Source of the DNA: a virus
Lineage: Duplodnaviria; Heunggongvirae; Uroviricota; Caudoviricetes
IMG/VR virus record: IMGVR_UViG_2698536443_000001
Coordinates: 1-7,740 of that record
Reading direction: 5' to 3' (one strand)
Length of the DNA stretch: 7,740 nucleotides
Shown: positions 1,065-7,675 of the stretch, piece after piece
Layout: each line of letters begins with the position of its first letter
Position numbering within the stretch: position 1 is the stretch's first letter
The notes under the pieces: model-generated
The model's database searches: none
Seen by the model: the letters and a program-made list of their open reading frames with translations, nothing else
What the model was told of the DNA's origin: nothing
Translations under genes and position numbers: made by a program

Positions 1065-3410
1065 TTACATCTTACGGCGCTGTGCGTCTTCTACCGCCTG
1101 AGCAACTAACTTAGCGTGACGTTTGATAGCATCCATAACCATCTTGTCTGAGCTATTAACATTGCCGTTAATGTTCAAAGGCGCATTAACTTCAATCGGC
1201 TGAGAGTTACCACCGCCTGATTTTTGAGCAGATAAGAAGTCTTTCAAATCACCGTTAGTACGCTGATCAACTACTCGTTCACCCTTATCAAGCAACCATG
1301 TACCCTCACGAGGGATGTTATCAATACCATCATGAGCCATACCGCTAACGTTAGTAGACTTGATGTTTGCGATGTTCCCCATGTTCTGAGAAACAGCCAA
1401 TGCAGCAGCAGCAATTTTTTGACCTGTGGTGACGTTGGTCGGATCGTTCCATGCATCGGTAGCAGCCGTCCACATGTTCACCGTCGCTTGTCCGATAGAG
1501 AATGCTTTATGAGCATTGAAAGCCATCTGCATAGCTTTAGTGTTTTCCTGCCCGAAGAGAGTCATTGCAGCAGCAAAACCGCCATACATATCATCGGCTA
1601 TTGACTGGCGAGCATCAGCATATTTCTTTTCAATTGCAGCCATCCGTTTTTGATGGTTTTCATTGAGTTTTTCTAATGCTTCCATCCGTTTAGCCGGATC
1701 GGTGATCCCATCAATCTTGAGTAGTTTATCGGTCTTATAATCTTGTTCGGCTTCCGATTTCTCTTTATCGATTGCATTAAATTTAGCAAACGGATTATTT
1801 GAGTCTTGATAATCAAATCCGTTGGTTAATTGATTGGATTTAAAACCATCCATTCCCTGTAAATGACTATCAATCTGAGAATAGTTTTGTTCGGTGTCAT
1901 TCACGCGACGCATATATTCTTCATAGGAGATAGCTTTACCATCAAGTAACCGTTTATGGCTTTCTAACTCGTTGTCCCTGATTTGTTGCAAAACTGTTAA
2001 GGCATTCAAAGCATCAACCGGATCAGCACCCAGCATCATTTTATAAATGTTTTCTGCGTTCTGGTCTAACAGTTGCTGACGTTTCGCGGCTGCGTCTTGC
2101 TGAGAGATTAAGCCCATATCTAAAGCAGTGTCTAAATCTTTCAAGCTGGCTTCTAACTGCTTGTTTTGAGAAGCAATAGACGCGGCTGTCTGACCGTGCA
2201 ATCTAACATCAAGAGCATTCAGCTTTTTAATTGCATCTTCACGCTGTTTCTGCGCTTTTTCTGCGGCCTTCCTTGCTTCTTCTGCCGCTTTTTCTGCTTC
2301 TTCTTGTTCTTTTTTTGTTGGACCAGTGACTCCTCCACCTTGACCAGTTGGGGTAAATCCAGTATCCGATTTATTTCCAGTGATAGTAATTACCGGATCA
2401 CCGTTTTTATCACGGGTAACGCCTTCACTATCCACCCAACGATCAGGATAATTTGGTTTATTGTTGAAGCTGGCTTGTCCACCTGCTAGACCAGTAGAAC
2501 TATAACCATGCTTGTTAATAAAACCACCGTTAGCCATAGCCATATTCTGGCGAGCTTTTTCAAACCTTTCATTAAAAGTCTTTAATGCGTTGAATAAAGC
2601 GGTCTTTTCCCAATCTTTATCAAACCAGTTGTATAACTTGTTCATCCCTTCAACAACTGGATTTAGCGCATTTGCAGCCATACCCTTTAAGTTATCGGTA
2701 AGGGTATCCATATTTTTAGAGAATTTATTATATTCTTCGGCTGTATCATTGGTGATTTTAACAGTTTGCTGATTAATGGCGTTTACAGCTTCCTGATAAG
2801 ATCCGTATTTCTGCAATTCATCAGCCATATGACTTGAATCACTGGCTAACGATTCCATCATAAACTTAACATCAGCGATAGACGCACCAGCTTTGCGCAT
2901 GTCATAGAAGACCTTGATCGCCGCTTTCATCCCGCCTTGTGGATCGTTCATAAACTCGGCATAGTCTTTAATCTTCAAACCTACACTTTCTAGGTCATCT
3001 TCTATACCGCCACCATTACGCCACGCATCAGCCAGTTTATCTAAGGTGTCTTTGTTAATATCACCAAATTTCTCAACGGTTAAGCCAGTACCGGAGAATT
3101 GCTTCTCTAATTTCTGGAGTGTTTCGACGGTTAAACCAGTTGCTTTTGAAACTTCGCTGTATTCCTTTACATAATCACCGATGGCATTTGCAGCAGAGAC
3201 AGCACCAGCAGCCAGACCAACAAAACCACCAGCAGCCAAAGCAAGCGATCCACCAGTTCCGCGAAGGGTTCCACTTAAACTAGATAAACCACCAGACAAA
3301 TCAAGATTCATTGCCCTTTCTGAAAGGTTATCAAGCATGTCAATCGCTTGGTTGGTACTTCTCCTTAGACCGTCGTTATTCCCTTCTATTGTTACTATAT
3401 GTCTTGTCAT
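1065..3410 (-). CDS. Tail tape measure protein (781 aa)
   Basis: Long ORF directly after the chaperone pair. N-terminal Gly/Ala-rich hydrophobic segment (LSGGLSSLSGTLRGTGGSLALAAGGFVGLAAGAVSAANAIG), long helical or coiled-coil-like stretches, and a charged E/K/A-rich block (KKEQEEAEKAAEEARKAAEKAQKQ). ATG 3410-3408 preceded by GGGG (3417..3420). Stop TAA 1067-1065. Confidence 0.85.
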   Translation of the reverse strand: MTRHIVTIEGNNDGLRRSTNQAIDMLDNLSERAMNLDLSGGLSSLSGTLRGTGGSLALAAGGFVGLAAGAVSAANAIGDYVKEYSEVSKATGLTVETLQKLEKQFSGTGLTVEKFGDINKDTLDKLADAWRNGGGIEDDLESVGLKIKDYAEFMNDPQGGMKAAIKVFYDMRKAGASIADVKFMMESLASDSSHMADELQKYGSYQEAVNAINQQTVKITNDTAEEYNKFSKNMDTLTDNLKGMAANALNPVVEGMNKLYNWFDKDWEKTALFNALKTFNERFEKARQNMAMANGGFINKHGYSSTGLAGGQASFNNKPNYPDRWVDSEGVTRDKNGDPVITITGNKSDTGFTPTGQGGGVTGPTKKEQEEAEKAAEEARKAAEKAQKQREDAIKKLNALDVRLHGQTAASIASQNKQLEASLKDLDTALDMGLISQQDAAAKRQQLLDQNAENIYKMMLGADPVDALNALTVLQQIRDNELESHKRLLDGKAISYEEYMRRVNDTEQNYSQIDSHLQGMDGFKSNQLTNGFDYQDSNNPFAKFNAIDKEKSEAEQDYKTDKLLKIDGITDPAKRMEALEKLNENHQKRMAAIEKKYADARQSIADDMYGGFAAAMTLFGQENTKAMQMAFNAHKAFSIGQATVNMWTAATDAWNDPTNVTTGQKIAAAALAVSQNMGNIANIKSTNVSGMAHDGIDNIPREGTWLLDKGERVVDQRTNGDLKDFLSAQKSGGGNSQPIEVNAPLNINGNVNSSDKMVMDAIKRHAKLVAQAVEDAQRRKM

Positions 3411-3413
3411 AAA

Positions 3414-3788
3414 TTACCCCAATTGACCGCTCTTGAGCTTTTGTAATAATGAAGCGTCGAAATAACTATCAACCAAAGCAGAGTTACGTTCTTCCTCTTT
3501 CTTACGAGCAATTTCTTTTATTTCTTCTTGCGTTTTAAATTGCTTGTCGTCCTTAATCATTCGGAATTGGTTAACATTGATTTTATTCAACCATTCACGA
3601 GTCATGTTAGGAGATGTAACGTGCATGTAATACATCGACTGTGCATGTCGCGCATCTTGATATAGGGGGCTTTGTGGTTCAAGATATGTATCGAATATAT
3701 GCAACGCCCAAAATAGCGTAATTGGCATATTATCCATCTCATCTTTACTCAAGCCCCGACGCATCATTTGCCGAAAATAAAAATTCAA
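3414..3788 (-). CDS. Tail assembly chaperone T-segment (-1 frame); probably expressed as a G-T fusion by programmed frameshift rather than from its own start
   Basis: The ORF is in the -1 frame relative to the upstream 102-aa ORF, and its open frame extends upstream to 3812 (bounded by TGA 3815-3813). The track start at 3788 is a TTG with no Shine-Dalgarno. Stop TAA 3416-3414 lies 3 nt before the tape measure ATG. This matches the conserved G/GT arrangement upstream of tape measure genes. Confidence 0.55.
   Translation of the reverse strand: MNFYFRQMMRRGLSKDEMDNMPITLFWALHIFDTYLEPQSPLYQDARHAQSMYYMHVTSPNMTREWLNKINVNQFRMIKDDKQFKTQEEIKEIARKKEEERNSALVDSYFDASLLQKLKSGQLG
3417..3420 (-). promoter_or_regulatory. 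Shine-Dalgarno (GGGG) for the tape measure gene, embedded in the last codons of the upstream ORF
   Basis: Minus-strand TTGGGGTAATTT precedes ATG at 3410. Confidence 0.5.
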
Positions 3789-3796
3789 GAGCGGGT

Positions 3797-3812
3797 TTAC
3801 TTTACCTCGTTT
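3797..3812 (-). other. Candidate -1 programmed ribosomal frameshift window (A-AAG followed by UAA stop)
   Basis: G-frame reads GAA AAC GAG GTA AAG TAA. The -1 frame is open only from 3812, so any shift must occur within 3812..3800. The last sense codon AAG (3802-3800) sits on A-AAG, where tRNA-Lys can re-pair to AAA (3803-3801) while the A site holds a stop codon. Confidence 0.45.
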
Positions 3813-4105
3813 TCAATTACCGCCGCATCTTTCATCAATGATGCTTGAGCAACTAAGCCGATTAATTCACTGCGGACGCTAGTATACAGTGCCTTAACTT
3901 GTTCAATAGATTCAAATACTGGCTTACCGTCTTCATCTTCAATACAACGAAGAATAGAGCGTTCATCACGGTCTTTTTTATCAGTATTGAAAACATGTTC
4001 ATTAAATTCTTGTACCGACATAGGGCGAGCATAGAACGTAAATCCGCCGAGGGTTAAAGATTCACGTTTCGGAGAAAGAGCTTTCAGCATTTCATTCAGA
4101 TTCAT
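3797..4105 (-). CDS. Tail assembly chaperone G-like protein (102 aa)
   Basis: ATG 4105-4103 preceded by GAGGA (4117..4113) with a 7-nt spacer. Stop TAA 3799-3797. Small acidic protein directly upstream of the -1-frame ORF and the tape measure gene. Confidence 0.65.
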   Translation of the reverse strand: MNLNEMLKALSPKRESLTLGGFTFYARPMSVQEFNEHVFNTDKKDRDERSILRCIEDEDGKPVFESIEQVKALYTSVRSELIGLVAQASLMKDAAVIENEVK

Positions 4106-4150: not shown

Positions 4151-4657
4151 TTAAGAGATTTTCAAAGTCTGCTTAGTGCCAGTCTTCTTAATGTTATTGA
4201 GGAAAGCAGCCGGAGGATTGCTTAACCAGTAGTAATGAAAACCACTTTGCATACTGTTATAAGGAACAGTGACAGCAGCACCACCCAAATTAACGGTTAT
4301 ATTCCCCGCTCTACCGTTCTGGAGATATACAGCCATAGTAGGAGTACCACCATTGAATTGACCAACGATAACGCCAATCAGACGCCCTACGCCCACGTTT
4401 TCGGGGTTCTCCATTGACCCTTTACCGCGCATGTCAGTTACTGGATAGTTTGAAGCAGTTACCCCCCAGTTATTCCCCAATGAAGTAGACCATGCAGCAG
4501 TAGCTACAACCGTATCCATACCACGACCACACATCGCGCTCATATTACCAGGAACACCAACTTTTAACGCTTGCATAGCCTCACGCATCCATCGCTTGCC
4601 AGTCACAGAAACAGCCGATGATCCGACCCAGCCGGGCTTATTAACGACATTTGCCAT
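4151..4657 (-). CDS. Hypothetical protein (168 aa), Gly/Asn/Val/Thr-rich, possibly structural; function unknown
   Basis: ATG 4657-4655 preceded by GGAG (4669..4666) with an 8-nt spacer, immediately after a terminator-like hairpin. Stop TAA 4153-4151. No motif I can assign. Confidence 0.6.
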   Translation of the reverse strand: MANVVNKPGWVGSSAVSVTGKRWMREAMQALKVGVPGNMSAMCGRGMDTVVATAAWSTSLGNNWGVTASNYPVTDMRGKGSMENPENVGVGRLIGVIVGQFNGGTPTMAVYLQNGRAGNITVNLGGAAVTVPYNSMQSGFHYYWLSNPPAAFLNNIKKTGTKQTLKIS

Positions 4658-4825: not shown

Positions 4826-5299
4826 TCATCCGGCAGTGAAGATTTCCTGTTTCAGCGGAGCACCATCAACAGCAAAGGTAAACTCTTTAGTTACCACTTC
4901 TTCATCGCCACCGTTCATAGCAACTTTAGAGATGAAGCCGTTGAAAGCGGTGCGAATACCAGTCTGTTTTGCTGCATCAACATAGTATTCAATCTTAATC
5001 TGAATACGAGTACCGTCTTCGGCAGCTTTAATGAGCTTCTCGTGTACCGCATCACCAGGGATGTAGTTAACGGTCAGAGTCAGATCAGGAACGTTCAGCT
5101 TCCCTACCAGCTTACGGTTATACTGAGAAGAGAAGGATTTAACTTCTACAGTACCGCGCTCGATACCAGTTTCAGGAAAACCAGCACACTCTTTAATTTC
5201 TTCGTAGCTTTCGTGATCGAGAGCGGTGTTAGTGGTATCGGCGTGATAGAACATACTTACCAGACCACCAGTAAAAATATCTTTAAATTGCTGAGTCAT
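4826..5299 (-). CDS. Putative major tail (tube) protein-like protein (157 aa)
   Basis: ATG 5299-5297 preceded by AAGGGG (5312..5307) with a 7-nt spacer. Stop TGA 4828-4826. Size and position (upstream of chaperone pair and tape measure gene), plus hairpins flanking the cistron on both sides, suggest an abundantly expressed structural gene. The tube assignment is inference. Confidence 0.6.
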   Translation of the reverse strand: MTQQFKDIFTGGLVSMFYHADTTNTALDHESYEEIKECAGFPETGIERGTVEVKSFSSQYNRKLVGKLNVPDLTLTVNYIPGDAVHEKLIKAAEDGTRIQIKIEYYVDAAKQTGIRTAFNGFISKVAMNGGDEEVVTKEFTFAVDGAPLKQEIFTAG

Positions 5300-5356: not shown

Positions 5357-7675
5357 TTATTTAGTTGCTTTCAGTTCGGCAATTTCTTTCTGTAATGCTT
5401 CGATCTGTGCTTTATATTTGGCGTCCATTTCCTGCATAGCTTTAATAATCAGAGCATTGACAGCAGAGTTAGAAATAGTCTTGATTGCTTCTGGATTTTC
5501 TGGATCTTCGGTGGATTGAATACCTACTGCTTCCGGCAATACTTCTTCCAGATCCTGAGCAATAATACCTACTTCGCGTTTAATCACTGTGTCATCGGAA
5601 AGAGATTTAACTTTATCGTAGGTGTAGACTTTCAGGGAGTTTACTTTCTCTAATGCGCCGTCCTGTAATTCTTCCTTGTTAATCTTCAAACGGGAGTCAG
5701 AGCGAATGTAAACATCGTTAAAGCTACCGTTACGACCTGCGGTAAAGTCACCAGCAGCGTTAAAGTCAAAGTTAGTATCATGAACATGGAGACGAACAAG
5801 AGCGTTACCGATAGTACCGCTAGGAACGTGCACACCCATTGCTGCAATGTGATATTGACCCCAATGAGTAGCTTTCCAGATGTTATGTGCTGAATCTTTT
5901 GATTGGGGGCAATCAACTTGCAAACCGGAAGCACGGTCACGCCAACTAGACCAGCTACCACCAGAAACGTTACCACGAATCAAACCTTTATCAGACCCGC
6001 CGACGCTACCAGATTCAAGATGAATCATCTTATCCGCAAGTTTCCACGTCTGGGCTTGTTTCTGACCACGGAAGCGAATAACACCAGCATCATCGGAATA
6101 CATCAAACCTAGTTCTAAGCCGTTCGGATCTCTAAACCAGATGTGCTTATTTCCAGTGCGCTTAAATTCAATATCAGCACCGTTAAGCGTGATATTACCG
6201 CCAGTGTGGATTGCTTGAGGCCTAACAGTACCATTGATGGCAAATTCAATAGTAGAAGTACCAGGACCGCCAGCACGTTGGGTATACCAGTGCCAACCAC
6301 TTTCATCCGCGCATTCTAATACTTGCTTACGAGAATCATTACCCCATGCACGAATATTAAAGCTGGATGTAGCTGTATTTTTACCCCAAGTAAACTTACC
6401 ACCGACTTCAAGATCGCCTAAGAAGTTTGCCTTAAGAGCACCAGTACCCATAGCACGCTCTGTGCTAAAATGTCGACCTTGACTGTCTTCTATATACAAA
6501 ACGTTATCACGGGCATTATTACTATCACCCCAATGATTAAATCGAATATAATCACGAGATCCGCTTCTCCCAGCAGAGAAGGTTAAAAACCCTTTCTCGA
6601 TATATGTATCGCCAGCAAATCGAGCAGCACGGCTATCTCTTTCAAGAATTAATGCGCCTTCGTTGCCGTCACCACCTAAAGTAACTTTACCGTTAGTCAA
6701 ATCGTAAATGAACGGTCTGTTTCCATTCCACCCGCCCAATTTATCATTTTCGGCAGTAGAAAGAAGATAAACTTTACCACCATCATTACGCCAGAATGCA
6801 CCATAATTACCGTAGATCATGCGGTAGGCGTCGCTATTCATTGAGATGAATTGAGCGTTAGTATAAACTCGTTTTGTTTTACCTGTTGCAAGTTCGATCT
6901 GTCCGTCGATGTGGTGACGAATAGAAGTACCACCTACATCACTATACCATTCAAAAACGTTAGTATCAGCATTACCATAGCCGATCCAACCTTGACGGGT
7001 AATATCTCCAGTCCGATTATCTTGAAACGCAATATGGTTGGATTGACCAGCAGGACGCCGCAAGGTAATAACATTACTACCGCCACCTAACATCATTCGA
7101 CCAGAAAGAATATTACCTTTATGAGTCCCAGCAATAGAGCTACTAGATTCAACGGTTAGAATCTCCTGAGCATCGGTACTACCCGTGGCGAGTCGATAAC
7201 TGGAACCTTGAACCGTCTCATGCCAGATCATTTCATTATAGTTACTACGGAATTTACGAATATATTTCCGTCCAGTACCTCTATCATTGCTTAGATGAAC
7301 AATGTCATAGCTGTTTTGTGTATTGTCGTCAAAACTCAACACACCACGTTTATTTTCGGTATTAAAAAGAGTTACGTTGCGACCACCGATAACACCAACG
7401 GAAGGTTTAATTAACGTGGCTTCCGGCGTATCATAAACCGTCAAACTTACATAAACAGATTTCCCATATTCGACAATAACGTTATCGGTATAACGCTGAT
7501 ATTTCACGTAGATATCATAGTTATCACCGGAAGTATTGACAGCAAATACCTCAAAATCCTTGTTTGTATTTCTACGGTATGCAATTACGTTAAGACCTTT
7601 AGGTCTATCGTTACCACTACGCAGAAGAATTTCTACTACGTCAACCTGTGGATTTGCCCCTATATTTCCAGACAT
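5357..7675 (-). CDS. Tail fiber / tailspike-like protein (772 aa) with C-terminal intramolecular chaperone auto-processing domain (peptidase S74-like)
   Basis: C-terminal region contains YIRSDSRLKINKEEL... followed by a coiled-coil tail (AKYKAQIEALQKEIAELKATK). The S...K spacing matches the Ser-Lys dyad motif of endosialidase-type C-terminal chaperone domains. The large Gly/Asn/Thr/Ser-rich central region is typical of beta-structured fibers. ATG 7675-7673, stop TAA 5359-5357. Confidence 0.8.
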   Translation of the reverse strand: MSGNIGANPQVDVVEILLRSGNDRPKGLNVIAYRRNTNKDFEVFAVNTSGDNYDIYVKYQRYTDNVIVEYGKSVYVSLTVYDTPEATLIKPSVGVIGGRNVTLFNTENKRGVLSFDDNTQNSYDIVHLSNDRGTGRKYIRKFRSNYNEMIWHETVQGSSYRLATGSTDAQEILTVESSSSIAGTHKGNILSGRMMLGGGSNVITLRRPAGQSNHIAFQDNRTGDITRQGWIGYGNADTNVFEWYSDVGGTSIRHHIDGQIELATGKTKRVYTNAQFISMNSDAYRMIYGNYGAFWRNDGGKVYLLSTAENDKLGGWNGNRPFIYDLTNGKVTLGGDGNEGALILERDSRAARFAGDTYIEKGFLTFSAGRSGSRDYIRFNHWGDSNNARDNVLYIEDSQGRHFSTERAMGTGALKANFLGDLEVGGKFTWGKNTATSSFNIRAWGNDSRKQVLECADESGWHWYTQRAGGPGTSTIEFAINGTVRPQAIHTGGNITLNGADIEFKRTGNKHIWFRDPNGLELGLMYSDDAGVIRFRGQKQAQTWKLADKMIHLESGSVGGSDKGLIRGNVSGGSWSSWRDRASGLQVDCPQSKDSAHNIWKATHWGQYHIAAMGVHVPSGTIGNALVRLHVHDTNFDFNAAGDFTAGRNGSFNDVYIRSDSRLKINKEELQDGALEKVNSLKVYTYDKVKSLSDDTVIKREVGIIAQDLEEVLPEAVGIQSTEDPENPEAIKTISNSAVNALIIKAMQEMDAKYKAQIEALQKEIAELKATK
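5360..5701 (-). other. Intramolecular chaperone (S74-like) domain-coding region of the fiber gene; predicted autocleavage motif SDSRLK at 5684..5701
   Basis: Residues about 659-772. Codons TCT GAC TCC CGT TTG AAG (5701..5684) encode S-D-S-R-L-K. Confidence 0.6.

What the first reader, a model, noticed from the sequence alone, without database searches (positions are those of the whole stretch)
3797..3815. Candidate -1 programmed frameshift joining the G-like and T-like chaperone ORFs at a shifty stop (A-AAG-UAA)
The 124-aa ORF is in the -1 frame relative to the 102-aa ORF. Its open frame begins only 13 nt upstream of the G stop and has no credible independent start (TTG, no Shine-Dalgarno). 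The only plausible slip site in the 13-nt overlap is the last sense codon AAG on A-AAG with a UAA in the A site, which is not the classical XXXYYYZ heptamer. That would give a G-T fusion of about 230 aa, in the conserved position directly upstream of the tape measure gene.
Basis: partly seen in the sequence, partly recalled or inferred. Interest (0 to 1): 0.55.

Follow-up and report, generated by a model that had tools for sequence, protein, structure and literature searches.

The report
Unannotated tail-chaperone frameshift at A-AAG-stop
An E. coli/Shigella-type prophage almost certainly makes its second tail-assembly chaperone by a -1 ribosomal slip on the last codon (A_AAG) of the first one, right before its stop; this is a well-known phage trick using an unusually minimal signal that no annotation examined here records.

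Summary
All genes are on the minus strand. G (4105..3797, 102 aa) ends GUA AAG UAA. The T frame is -1 relative to G. It opens 13 nt before the G stop, behind a TGA at 3815-3813, and runs to 3414, 4 nt before the tape measure gene.

Comparison of 69 related loci from Escherichia, Shigella, Salmonella, Edwardsiella and metagenomes supports the frameshift reading:
- T is always -1 of G.
- An in-phase A_AAG always lies in the short overlap. In 60 of 69 loci the stop follows it directly.
- The 11 T-frame codons between the G stop and the first conserved ATG are under protein-level selection. Eight of the ten variable codons change only synonymously, against one of ten in either other frame.
- No start codon is conserved there, and the ATG has no Shine-Dalgarno sequence.
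- Distant relatives carry canonical heptamers at about the same place (U_UUA_AAG; A_AAA_AAG_UAA with a 7-nt overlap).

The G model's only meaningful PDB match is the HK97 tail assembly chaperone. No conserved RNA structure or upstream Shine-Dalgarno stimulator was found.

This is a new, unannotated member of the known G/GT frameshift class with a non-heptamer signal. The stop's stimulatory role is unproven, because some relatives lack it. Nothing was tested experimentally.

The parts
3797..4105 (-). G-like tail assembly chaperone gene (102 aa, 11.6 kDa). It has its own Shine-Dalgarno sequence (GAGGA) and its stop is UAA at 3799-3797.
   Evidence: ORF. PHROG 344 'tail assembly chaperone' E=1.8e-7. 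Pfam Phage_TAC_13 E=1.6e-4, below the curated cutoff. AlphaFold model has pLDDT 77. The only meaningful Foldseek PDB hit is 2OB9, the HK97 tail assembly chaperone: prob 1.00, TM 0.55-0.58, full length.
3800..3805 (-). Proposed shift site GUA_AAG. The core tetranucleotide A_AAG is 3803-3800. tRNA-Lys re-pairs from AAG (3802-3800) to AAA (3803-3801), and the next codon read is GUA (3800-3798).
   Evidence: GTA AAG is invariant in 60 of 60 loci of this clade. An in-phase A_AAG is present in 69 of 69 loci. The synonymous positions of both codons never vary, while 17 of 19 other amino-acid-invariant four-fold columns do. The base 5' of GUA varies (G, A or T), so this is not an X_XXY_YYZ heptamer.
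3797..3799 (-). G stop codon UAA directly 3' of the shift codon. It is the candidate 'shifty stop' stimulator.
   Evidence: A stop is directly adjacent to AAG in 60 of 69 loci: UAA in 58, UGA once and UAG once. It is absent in the DCP80 clade, one codon away in L096-99, and four codons away in the Edwardsiella variant.
3813..3815 (-). TGA stop in the -1 (T) frame. It sets the upstream limit of any productive shift and leaves a 13-nt window.
   Evidence: The -1-frame residues between this stop and the slip-site Lys are not conserved (K/R/E/I, R/I/S, G/S/C).
3768..3800 (-). Eleven T-frame codons (V N P L L N F Y F R Q) between the shift site and the first conserved ATG. They are translated but have no start codon of their own.
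   Evidence: The amino acids are invariant at 9 of 11 positions. Eight codons vary only synonymously, two change amino acid, and CCG never varies; the ATG that follows (3767-3765) is also invariant. Of the 15 variable sites, 10, 3 and 2 fall at T-frame codon positions 3, 1 and 2. TTG 3788 is CTG in 28 of 40 distinct junction sequences and TTA or CTA in 5 more.
3414..3799 (-). T-frame (-1) coding region read after the shift (128 aa, including the Val codon that overlaps the stop). It ends 4 nt before the tape measure ATG.
   Evidence: Homologues occur in E. coli, Shigella, Salmonella, Edwardsiella, Proteus and Providencia, all 'hypothetical' with inconsistent starts of 73-123 aa. The model is all-helical but of low confidence (pLDDT 67).
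1065..3410 (-). Tape measure protein gene (781 aa), immediately downstream of T.
   Evidence: PHROG 13674 'tail length tape measure protein' E=6.7e-66.
4826..5299 (-). Major tail (tube) protein gene, upstream of G.
   Evidence: PHROG 158 'major tail protein' E=4.6e-21. Pfam Phage_TTP_11 E=1.9e-6.

Best explanation
The two ORFs are the G and T parts of a lambda-type tail assembly chaperone pair in a siphovirus-like prophage of E. coli/Shigella.

Most ribosomes translate G (102 aa) and terminate at UAA 3799-3797. A minority shift -1 on the last sense codon. The single enterobacterial tRNA-Lys (anticodon UUU) unpairs from AAG (3802-3800) and re-pairs cognately with AAA (3803-3801). Decoding then continues with GUA AAC CCG... 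in the T frame. The product is a 230-aa, 27-kDa G-T fusion: ...IENEVK-VNPLLNFYFRQMMRRGL...

By analogy with lambda gpG/gpGT, the G part would bind the tape measure protein and the T part would recruit the major tail protein. This last step is inferred, not shown.

The signal is a bare Z_ZZN tetranucleotide in a GUA_AAG hexanucleotide context. It is not an X_XXY_YYZ heptamer, and it has no conserved downstream RNA structure or upstream Shine-Dalgarno sequence. The adjacent stop codon is the only conserved candidate stimulator. In that model, peptidyl-tRNA-Lys slips in the P site while the A site waits for a release factor. I consider this somewhat more likely than an A-site or translocation-stage slip of Lys-tRNA with GUA in the P site. 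Both routes give the same protein, and the data here cannot separate them.
For: Shown by sequence and comparison:
- The frame, overlap and stop geometry are as described.
- All 69 related loci have T in the -1 frame and an in-phase A_AAG inside the overlap. The overlap is 7-25 nt in 61 of 69 loci, and 60 of 69 have the stop directly 3'.
- Protein-level selection in the T frame begins at the codon after the slip-site Lys. It covers 11 codons that have no conserved start codon.
- The third positions of GUA and AAG are invariant although synonymous sites elsewhere are nearly saturated. Only 2 of 19 four-fold columns and 7 of 37 two-fold columns are codon-invariant.
- The slip-site Lys is an invariant column in the protein alignment with phage DCP80.
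- Relatives at 35-39% T identity carry canonical heptamers at about the same place: U_UUA_AAG (DCP80, L058, L060) and A_AAA_AAG_UAA, where the -1 frame opens exactly 7 nt before the stop (L095, L100).
- There is no Shine-Dalgarno sequence before the T-frame ATGs. There is no minus-strand promoter-like site and no terminator between G and T.
- G has a tail assembly chaperone fold and family hits, and lies between the major tail and tape measure genes. The G C-terminus (residues 93-100) is predicted to be disordered, as expected for a linker.

From the literature:
- A_AAG is the most efficient -1 tetramer in E. coli. It reaches 5.6% with a stimulator but is near background alone (PMC4066793).
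- NNA_AAG shifts are used by IS1222 and occur in B. subtilis cdd. E. coli has a single tRNA-Lys (PMC5009743).
- A 'shifty stop' is a slow stop in the A site combined with a P-site tRNA that can re-pair in a new frame (PMC3082878).
- Lambda needs only about 1 gpGT per 30 gpG (PMC5009743).
Against: There is no protein or reporter evidence of any kind.

The tetramer alone is barely above background in reporter assays (PMC4066793). No RNA structure or Shine-Dalgarno stimulator was found: the local fold has z=0.61, and RNAalifold gives -0.4 kcal/mol with no covariation.

The proposed stop stimulator is not universal. The Edwardsiella variant (and, by the same C-terminal extension, Salmonella G homologues) has AAA instead of UAA and terminates four codons later. 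The DCP80 clade terminates 10-12 codons later.

UAA is normally a well-recognised stop, so the pause may be short.

An ATG (3767) is conserved throughout the E. coli/Salmonella clade, so some independent T synthesis cannot be excluded.

The T part has no hit to any described T-domain family, and its model is of low confidence.
Confidence: 0.85

Rival explanations
1. T is made only as a separate protein of about 117 aa. It starts at the conserved ATG 3767 (or 3764), either by weak Shine-Dalgarno-independent initiation on the A/U-rich leader or by reinitiation of ribosomes that have just terminated at the G stop 29 nt upstream. No fusion is made.
For: The ATG is present in all 40 distinct junction sequences of the E. 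coli/Salmonella clade. Gene callers annotate T as a separate gene. In the Edwardsiella variant the G stop overlaps an ATG in the T frame (TGATG). This is a typical translational-coupling arrangement, and it suggests T can be made on its own in at least that lineage.
Against: The 11 codons upstream of that ATG show a clear T-frame coding signature and have no conserved start. There is no Shine-Dalgarno sequence, with dG -1.1 and -1.7 kcal/mol. The Met is not conserved in the DCP80 clade or in L096, where the position is Leu or Ile. Annotated starts differ among near-identical copies (117, 116, 112, 107 and 104 aa). This rival gives no reason for the invariant synonymous positions of GUA AAG, for the universal -1 phase, or for the heptamers in relatives.
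Confidence: 0.08
2. The T frame is reached by a different recoding event in the same few nucleotides. One option is a +5 hop of tRNA-Val between the two GUA triplets of the tandem GUAAA-GUAAA (3805-3796), giving ...NEV-NPLL. Another is an A-site slip on the upstream A_AAC (3812-3809). A third is transcriptional slippage.
For: GUAAAGUAAA is a perfect 5-nt tandem repeat, and +5 is equivalent to -1 in frame. A_AAC is an in-phase Z_ZZN tetramer inside the open window.
Against: Relatives with GAA AAG AAC UAA, UUA AAG CCG or AAA AAG UAA have no matching take-off and landing pair. In L045 the second GUA is GUG. A_AAC is not conserved, and the -1-frame residues before the slip-site Lys are not conserved either. 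A_AAC was barely or not at all shift-prone as a tetramer in E. coli (PMC4066793). A run of only three A is too short for polymerase slippage (established knowledge).
Confidence: 0.04
3. The T-frame ORF is a decaying or non-functional remnant, and the geometry is a historical accident.
For: The elements are prophages. Two loci have truncated T frames: L028 with 96 codons and L046 with 43.
Against: The T protein is conserved across six genera with abundant synonymous change and few replacements. The frame stays open for about 125-135 codons in nearly all loci.
Confidence: 0.01

Closest known systems
Lambda gpG/gpGT and the conserved G/T tail assembly chaperone frameshift of long-tailed dsDNA phages (Levin, Hendrix and Casjens 1993; Xu, Hendrix and Duda 2004, as cited in PMC5009743)
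   Same: Two small ORFs lie between the major tail and tape measure genes. The second is in the -1 frame, overlaps the 3' end of the first and has no start signals of its own. G has a tail assembly chaperone fold (HK97 chaperone 2OB9). A low-level fusion product is expected.
   Different: Lambda uses the heptamer G_GGA_AAG some distance before the G stop. Mean distances from slip site to stop of 26-36 nt are reported for chaperone datasets in PMC10885494. Here there is only the tetranucleotide A_AAG on the very last sense codon, with the stop in the next position. In this window a gp38-like adhesin gene separates the major tail gene from G.
A_AAG tetranucleotide / NNA_AAG hexanucleotide -1 frameshifting (IS1222 G_CGA_AAG, IS3 A_AAG, B. 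subtilis cdd A_CGA_AAG; PMC5009743, PMC4066793)
   Same: The same minimal motif is in the same phase. The host has a single tRNA-Lys(UUU) that pairs weakly with AAG and cognately with AAA. It is a single-tRNA slip.
   Different: IS3 relies on a downstream pseudoknot stimulator (PMC4066793); from memory, unverified here, cdd relies on an upstream Shine-Dalgarno-like sequence. None is detectable or conserved here. The 5' codon is GUA rather than CGA.
'Shifty stop' frameshifting (prfB CUU_UGA; CCC_UGA and CCC_UAA in Listeria, Lactobacillus Q54 and SPP1 phage tail genes; PMC3082878)
   Same: The shift codon is immediately followed by a stop codon, and the P-site tRNA can re-pair in the new frame. 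Phage tail genes are known users of this device.
   Different: The examples named in the papers read here are +1 shifts. This would be a -1 shift. Dependence on the stop is not demonstrated, and some relatives have lost the adjacent stop.
E. coli dnaX A_AAA_AAG
   Same: The same A-site codon and tRNA-Lys are involved. The distant relatives L095 and L100 carry exactly A_AAA_AAG at the corresponding place.
   Different: dnaX needs an upstream Shine-Dalgarno sequence and a downstream hairpin, and it shifts at about 50%. The window lacks the first AAA and both stimulators.

Membership tests
G/GT tail assembly chaperone with programmed frameshift (lambda-like) | Two small ORFs lie between the major tail protein gene and the tape measure gene. 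| tested here: met
   Major tail gene 4826-5299, G 3797-4105, T 3414-3812, tape measure gene 1065-3410. In this window an extra gp38-like adhesin gene (4151-4657) lies between the major tail gene and G. Relatives such as L048 have the major tail gene directly followed by G.
G/GT tail assembly chaperone with programmed frameshift (lambda-like) | The first ORF is a tail assembly chaperone by homology or fold. | tested here: met
   PHROG 344 E=1.8e-7. Pfam PF16459 E=1.6e-4, which is below the curated cutoff. One homologue cluster carries a precomputed PF16459 hit. The top and only significant Foldseek PDB hit is 2OB9, the HK97 tail assembly chaperone, with prob 1.00 and TM 0.55-0.58.
G/GT tail assembly chaperone with programmed frameshift (lambda-like) | The second ORF is in an alternative frame, overlaps the 3' end of the first, and lacks its own initiation signals. 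| tested here: met
   T is in the -1 frame in 69 of 69 loci. There is no Shine-Dalgarno sequence. There is no conserved start upstream of codons that are under selection.
G/GT tail assembly chaperone with programmed frameshift (lambda-like) | A canonical X_XXY_YYZ slippery heptamer lies in the overlap. | tested here: not met
   The window has G_GUA_AAG, and the first base varies (G, A or T) in relatives. Canonical heptamers (U_UUA_AAG, A_AAA_AAG) occur only in relatives at 35-39% T identity. Non-heptamer chaperone sites are acknowledged in the literature (PMC10885494), so this feature is typical rather than strictly defining.
G/GT tail assembly chaperone with programmed frameshift (lambda-like) | A G-T fusion protein is made at a low ratio and is required for tail assembly. 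| not testable with these tools
   This needs a western blot, mass spectrometry or genetics.
G/GT tail assembly chaperone with programmed frameshift (lambda-like) | The T part is related to described T domains. | tested here: inconclusive
   No Pfam or PHROG family was found for the T frame. The model is of low confidence (pLDDT 67, pTM 0.34), so no fold search was attempted.
Z_ZZN tetranucleotide -1 frameshift (A_AAG type) | A_AAG is in phase, so that the zero-frame AAG re-pairs to AAA in the -1 frame. | tested here: met
   Window 3803-3800. Present in 69 of 69 loci.
Z_ZZN tetranucleotide -1 frameshift (A_AAG type) | A flanking stimulator is present: a downstream hairpin or pseudoknot, or an upstream Shine-Dalgarno sequence at 10-14 nt. 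| tested here: not met
   Folding z=0.61. RNAalifold consensus -0.4 kcal/mol with no covarying pair. No Rfam element. GAGGU lies directly 5' of the site but is not conserved: GAAGU, GCGGU, GAUGU and UCGGU occur in relatives.
Shifty-stop frameshift | A stop codon lies immediately 3' of the shift codon, and the P-site tRNA can re-pair in the new frame. | tested here: met
   AAG UAA in the window. The stop is adjacent in 60 of 69 loci. AAG to AAA is cognate for tRNA-Lys(UUU) (PMC5009743).
Shifty-stop frameshift | Shift efficiency depends on the stop codon and on release-factor activity. | not testable with these tools
   This needs stop-to-sense mutants or release-factor titration. Natural variants without the adjacent stop exist, which argues that the stop is not indispensable.

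The most novel reading that the evidence does not exclude
In this prophage family the programmed signal may be nothing more than A_AAG followed by a stop codon. That would be a naturally used -1 'shifty stop', in which peptidyl-tRNA-Lys slips back while the A site waits for a release factor, with no heptamer, RNA structure or Shine-Dalgarno sequence. The G:GT ratio would then depend on the host's termination capacity. The family would also provide a natural series of signals at about the same position: A_AAA_AAG_UAA, U_UUA_AAG, G_GAA_AAG_AAC_UAA, N_GUA_AAG_UAA and GUA_AAG_AAA.
Probability: 0.35. Interest if true: 0.55.

Novelty: new member of a known kind. Interest (0 to 1): 0.4.

Why it matters
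It corrects the annotation of a prophage tail module. The exact G sequence occurs on 916 contigs, and the region is found in 52 of 5426 complete E. coli genomes. In those records G is called 'cytochrome' or 'hypothetical', T is given five different arbitrary starts, and the predicted 230-aa fusion sequence is absent from a 15-billion-protein collection.

For recoding research it offers a compact natural test case. The question is how little sequence suffices for a utilised -1 frameshift in E. coli, and whether a stop codon can replace the P-site half of the heptamer. The related loci already supply the comparison constructs.

The motif also falls outside the ten motif classes that the PRFect paper lists (judged from the motif names; PMC10885494), so cases like this are probably missed.

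Tried and rejected
- Megablast of the region against the phage and plasmid collections found nothing. Only one distant phage record, DCP80, was found by tblastn.
- Two genome-contig scans with T alignments confirmed no relatives. A viral-contig scan with the DCP80 T sequence found nothing.
- I searched for a downstream stimulatory RNA structure by single-sequence folds of 13 representatives, a fold of the window region with shuffles, and RNAalifold on 12 diverse sequences. No stable or conserved structure appeared. A possible 4-bp CCCG/CGGG pairing with a loop of about 35 nt was considered and dropped as negligible.
- An Rfam scan at permissive E-value gave only a chance snoRNA hit.
- The GAGGU next to the site was considered as an upstream Shine-Dalgarno stimulator. 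I rejected it because it is adjacent rather than 10-14 nt away and is not conserved.
G and T were modelled separately instead. The T model is too poor for fold searching.
- A PDB sequence search with G gave only chance hits.
- Licznar et al. 2003, which holds the NNA_AAG efficiencies including GUA_AAG, is not in the library. The expected efficiency of GUA_AAG is therefore unverified.
- A literature search for the string AAAGUAA returned only irrelevant primer matches.
Full report
**Observation**

All genes in the window are on the minus strand. The minus strand between 3820 and 3760 reads GUA AUU GAA AAC GAG GUA AAG UAA ACC CGC UCU UGA AUU UUU AUU UUC GGC AAA UGA UGC in the G frame.

- G runs 4105..3797 (102 aa) and stops at UAA 3799-3797.
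- T codons begin one base 5' of the G codons, so T is the -1 frame.
- The -1 frame is closed by TGA at 3815-3813 and open from 3812. The overlap is therefore 13 nt.
- The predicted fusion, if tRNA-Lys moves from AAG to AAA and GUA is read next, is 230 aa and 27.0 kDa. G alone is 11.6 kDa.

The one correction is that a weaker in-phase tetramer, A_AAC at 3812-3809, also lies in the overlap.

**Context**

- ORF 4826-5299 is a lambda-like major tail (tube) protein: PHROG 158 E=4.6e-21, Pfam Phage_TTP_11.
- ORF 1065-3410 is a tape measure protein: PHROG 13674 E=6.7e-66.
- ORF 453-1049 is a distal tail protein.
- G hits PHROG 344 'tail assembly chaperone' (E=1.8e-7) and, below cutoff, Pfam Phage_TAC_13.
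- An AlphaFold model of G built on 30 homologues (pLDDT 77) has a single meaningful match in the PDB. That match is 2OB9, the HK97 tail assembly chaperone, over the full length with Foldseek probability 1.00 and TM 0.55-0.58.
- The last ten residues of G are predicted to be disordered, as expected for a linker.
- The T frame has no Pfam or PHROG family. Its model is helical but of low confidence (pLDDT 67).

**Origin and annotation**

The region is absent from the phage and plasmid collections at the DNA level. It is found in 52 of 5426 complete E. coli genomes at about 60-99% identity. The exact G protein occurs on 916 contigs.

The E. coli RefSeq records annotate G and T as separate hypothetical proteins, with T starting at a downstream ATG. 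Elsewhere G is often named 'cytochrome'. Within one 90%-identity cluster T is annotated with five different starts (117, 116, 112, 107 and 104 aa). The predicted fusion sequences tried are not in the 15-billion-protein collection. The frameshift is therefore unannotated in every record examined.

**Comparative test**

I collected 69 non-redundant related loci from IMG/VR prophage contigs, metagenomes, Logan/ENA/NCBI assemblies, E. coli genomes and phage DCP80.

1. T is -1 relative to G in all 69 loci.
2. The -1 frame opens 7-25 nt before the G stop in 61 loci, 43-49 nt in 3, and 106-112 nt in 5.
3. An in-phase A_AAG lies in the overlap in all 69 loci.
4. In the 60 loci of the E. coli/Salmonella clade (T identity 50-100%) the junction is N GUA AAG followed directly by a stop. 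The stop is UAA in 58, UGA once, and UAG once with a 3-nt GTA insertion that keeps the phase. The base 5' of GUA is G, A or T, so the site is not an X_XXY_YYZ heptamer.

**Is the stretch between the G stop and the ATG-ATG translated?**

Among 40 distinct junction sequences, the T-frame codons after the slip-site Lys read V N P L L x F Y (F/Y) R Q M.

- Amino acids are invariant at 9 of the 11 positions before the Met.
- Synonymous variants include GTA/GTG, AAC/AAT, CTC/CTT, TTG/CTG/TTA/CTA, TTT/TTC, TAT/TAC, CGG/CGC/CGT/AGG and CAA/CAG.
- Of 15 variable nucleotide sites, 10 fall at T-frame third positions.
- Eight of 10 variable codon columns are synonymous-only in the T frame, against 1 of 10 in each of the other frames.
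- The TTG at 3788 is CTG in 28 of the 40 sequences and TTA or CTA in 5 more. No ATG, GTG or TTG is therefore conserved between the -1-frame stop and these selected codons.
- The -1-frame residues upstream of the slip-site Lys are not conserved.

Protein-level constraint thus starts at the proposed shift site. This is hard to explain unless ribosomes enter the T frame there.

**Synonymous-site conservation at the site**

I made codon alignments of 46 unique G+T pairs.

- Only 2 of 19 amino-acid-invariant four-fold-degenerate columns never change codon. One is the slip-site Val (GUA). The other is a Pro (CCG) three codons downstream.
- The slip-site Lys (AAG) is one of 7 of 37 invariant two-fold columns.
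- AAG is the minority Lys codon in the window's genes (AAA 108, AAG 56).

The A of GUA has no coding role in the T frame. Its invariance fits the requirement for A_AAG.

**Distant relatives**

- In the protein alignment with phage DCP80 (35% identity), the Lys encoded by the -1-frame AAA is an invariant column.
- In DCP80, L060 and L058 that Lys lies in a canonical U_UUA_AAG heptamer, and G continues for 10-12 more codons.
- In L095 and L100 (39% identity) G ends GAA AAA AAG UAA. That is the dnaX heptamer A_AAA_AAG directly followed by the stop. The -1 frame opens exactly 7 nt before the stop, so the heptamer is the only place a shift could occur.
- L096-L099 have G_GAA_AAG AAC UAA.
- The number of residues between the slip-site Lys and a conserved RGL motif is 13-17 in all clades, so these sites are at about the same position (my count).
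- The one feature shared by all clades is A_AAG.

**Independent initiation**

- The anti-Shine-Dalgarno duplex energies upstream of the T-frame ATGs 3767 and 3764 are -1.1 and -1.7 kcal/mol. The values for the major tail, gp38-like, G and tape measure genes are -5.9 to -8.4.
- There is no minus-strand promoter-like site and no terminator between G and T.
- The Met is not conserved outside the E. coli/Salmonella clade.
- One lineage is different. In the Edwardsiella tarda loci (L059, L094) the UAA is AAA, G is 4 codons longer, and its UGA overlaps an ATG in the T frame (TGATG). A_AAG is retained. Salmonella G homologues P0099 and P0103 carry the same 4-residue extension (KKTPS). There T could also be made by translational coupling.
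- I keep independent T synthesis as a minor rival or as an additional route.

**Mechanism**

The literature establishes four relevant points.

- A_AAG is the most shift-prone -1 tetranucleotide in E. coli. It reaches 5.6% with the IS3 pseudoknot but is near background without a stimulator (PMC4066793).
- NNA_AAG sites are used by IS1222 and occur in B. subtilis cdd. Their efficiency depends on the wobble behaviour of the tRNA that reads the 5' codon. E. coli has a single tRNA-Lys (PMC5009743).
- A slow stop in the A site combined with a P-site tRNA that can re-pair in another frame is shift-prone, the 'shifty stop'. This device is used for +1 shifts in several phage tail genes (PMC3082878).
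- Lambda needs only about one gpGT per 30 gpG (PMC5009743).

I found no stimulatory RNA.

- The 113-nt region folds no better than shuffled sequences (z=0.61).
- Structures differ between relatives.
- RNAalifold gives -0.4 kcal/mol with no covariation.
- Rfam has nothing relevant.
- The adjacent GAGGU is not conserved.

The stop codon is therefore the only conserved candidate stimulator, and 60 of 69 loci keep it. The exceptions show it is dispensable, or compensated, in some lineages. An A-site or translocation-stage slip on GUA_AAG gives the same protein. I rate the P-site/stop route as only moderately more likely.

A +5 hop between the two GUA triplets of GUAAAGUAAA is formally possible. 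Relatives that lack a matched landing codon do not support it.

**Comparison with known systems**

Functionally and by membership, this is a lambda/HK97-type G/GT tail assembly chaperone pair. Position, fold, -1 overlap and absence of T start signals all match. It lacks the typical heptamer and the typical 20-40 nt distance to the stop. It works like the A_AAG tetranucleotide shifts of IS elements but without their stimulators. It also resembles shifty-stop sites, whose examples in the papers read here are +1.

**Verdict**

Direct protein evidence is lacking. The finding is a new, unannotated member of a well-known class that uses a minimal, non-heptamer signal. Interest is moderate (0.4). It would be higher (about 0.55) if experiments show that the stop codon alone drives a utilised -1 shift.

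Noticed in passing
window 4151-4657 and 5357-7675 (minus strand): A gp38-like adhesin gene (Pfam Gp38_N E=3.6e-15; PHROG 1121 'tail fiber adhesin' E=1.5e-33) sits between the major tail gene and G. A long fibre gene with T4 Gp34_trimer and Peptidase_S74 chaperone domains sits just upstream of the major tail gene. This puts T-even-type receptor-binding parts inside a siphovirus-type tail-tube module. Relatives lack or swap this cassette: in L048 the major tail gene is followed directly by G, and L052-L057 have three small ORFs instead.
   Followed up: partly
window 3797-4105; proteins P0076-P0121: Homologues of G are widely named 'cytochrome' in NCBI and UniRef records, although the fold and PHROG hits say tail assembly chaperone. 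This looks like a propagated misannotation.
   Followed up: partly
L059 about 2480-2504 and L094 about 2507-2531 (Edwardsiella tarda); proteins P0099, P0103 (Salmonella/Logan): In the Edwardsiella loci the adjacent stop UAA is AAA. G gains four residues (KTRS), and its UGA overlaps an ATG in the T frame (TGATG), while A_AAG is kept. Salmonella/Logan G homologues P0099 and P0103 end in the same kind of extension (KKTPS). This may be a switch to, or addition of, translational coupling for T.
   Followed up: partly
L095 and L100, about 2495-2510: Relatives at 39% T identity end G with GAA AAA AAG UAA. The -1 frame opens exactly 7 nt before the stop, so the whole overlap is the dnaX-type heptamer. 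The run of seven A could also allow transcriptional slippage there.
   Followed up: partly
window 3792-3794 (CCG) and 3790-3796 (A[C/U]CCGCU): The Pro codon CCG three codons after the shift site never varies in 46 unique sequences, and the nucleotides after the stop are unusually conserved. No RNA pairing partner was found, so a role as spacer or context is possible but unexplained.
   Followed up: partly
window about 3972-3983 (GAT AAA AAA GAC in G); protein P0107: One E. coli record encodes an 80-aa G variant that is out of frame after the A6 run (…DKK|TVMNALFF…). This is an indel or sequencing error at the homopolymer. The run is not in the right phase for tandem -1 slippage.
   Followed up: no
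L028 and L046: The T frame is truncated to 96 and 43 codons in two otherwise typical loci. These are probably decaying prophages or assembly errors.
   Followed up: no
L001 (Escherichia phage DCP80, PQ671644): The 141-kb record is classified as Straboviridae/Gaprivervirus, yet it carries this siphovirus-like module of major tail, G/T and tape measure genes with every gene labelled 'hypothetical'. The classification or the assembly may deserve a check.
   Followed up: no
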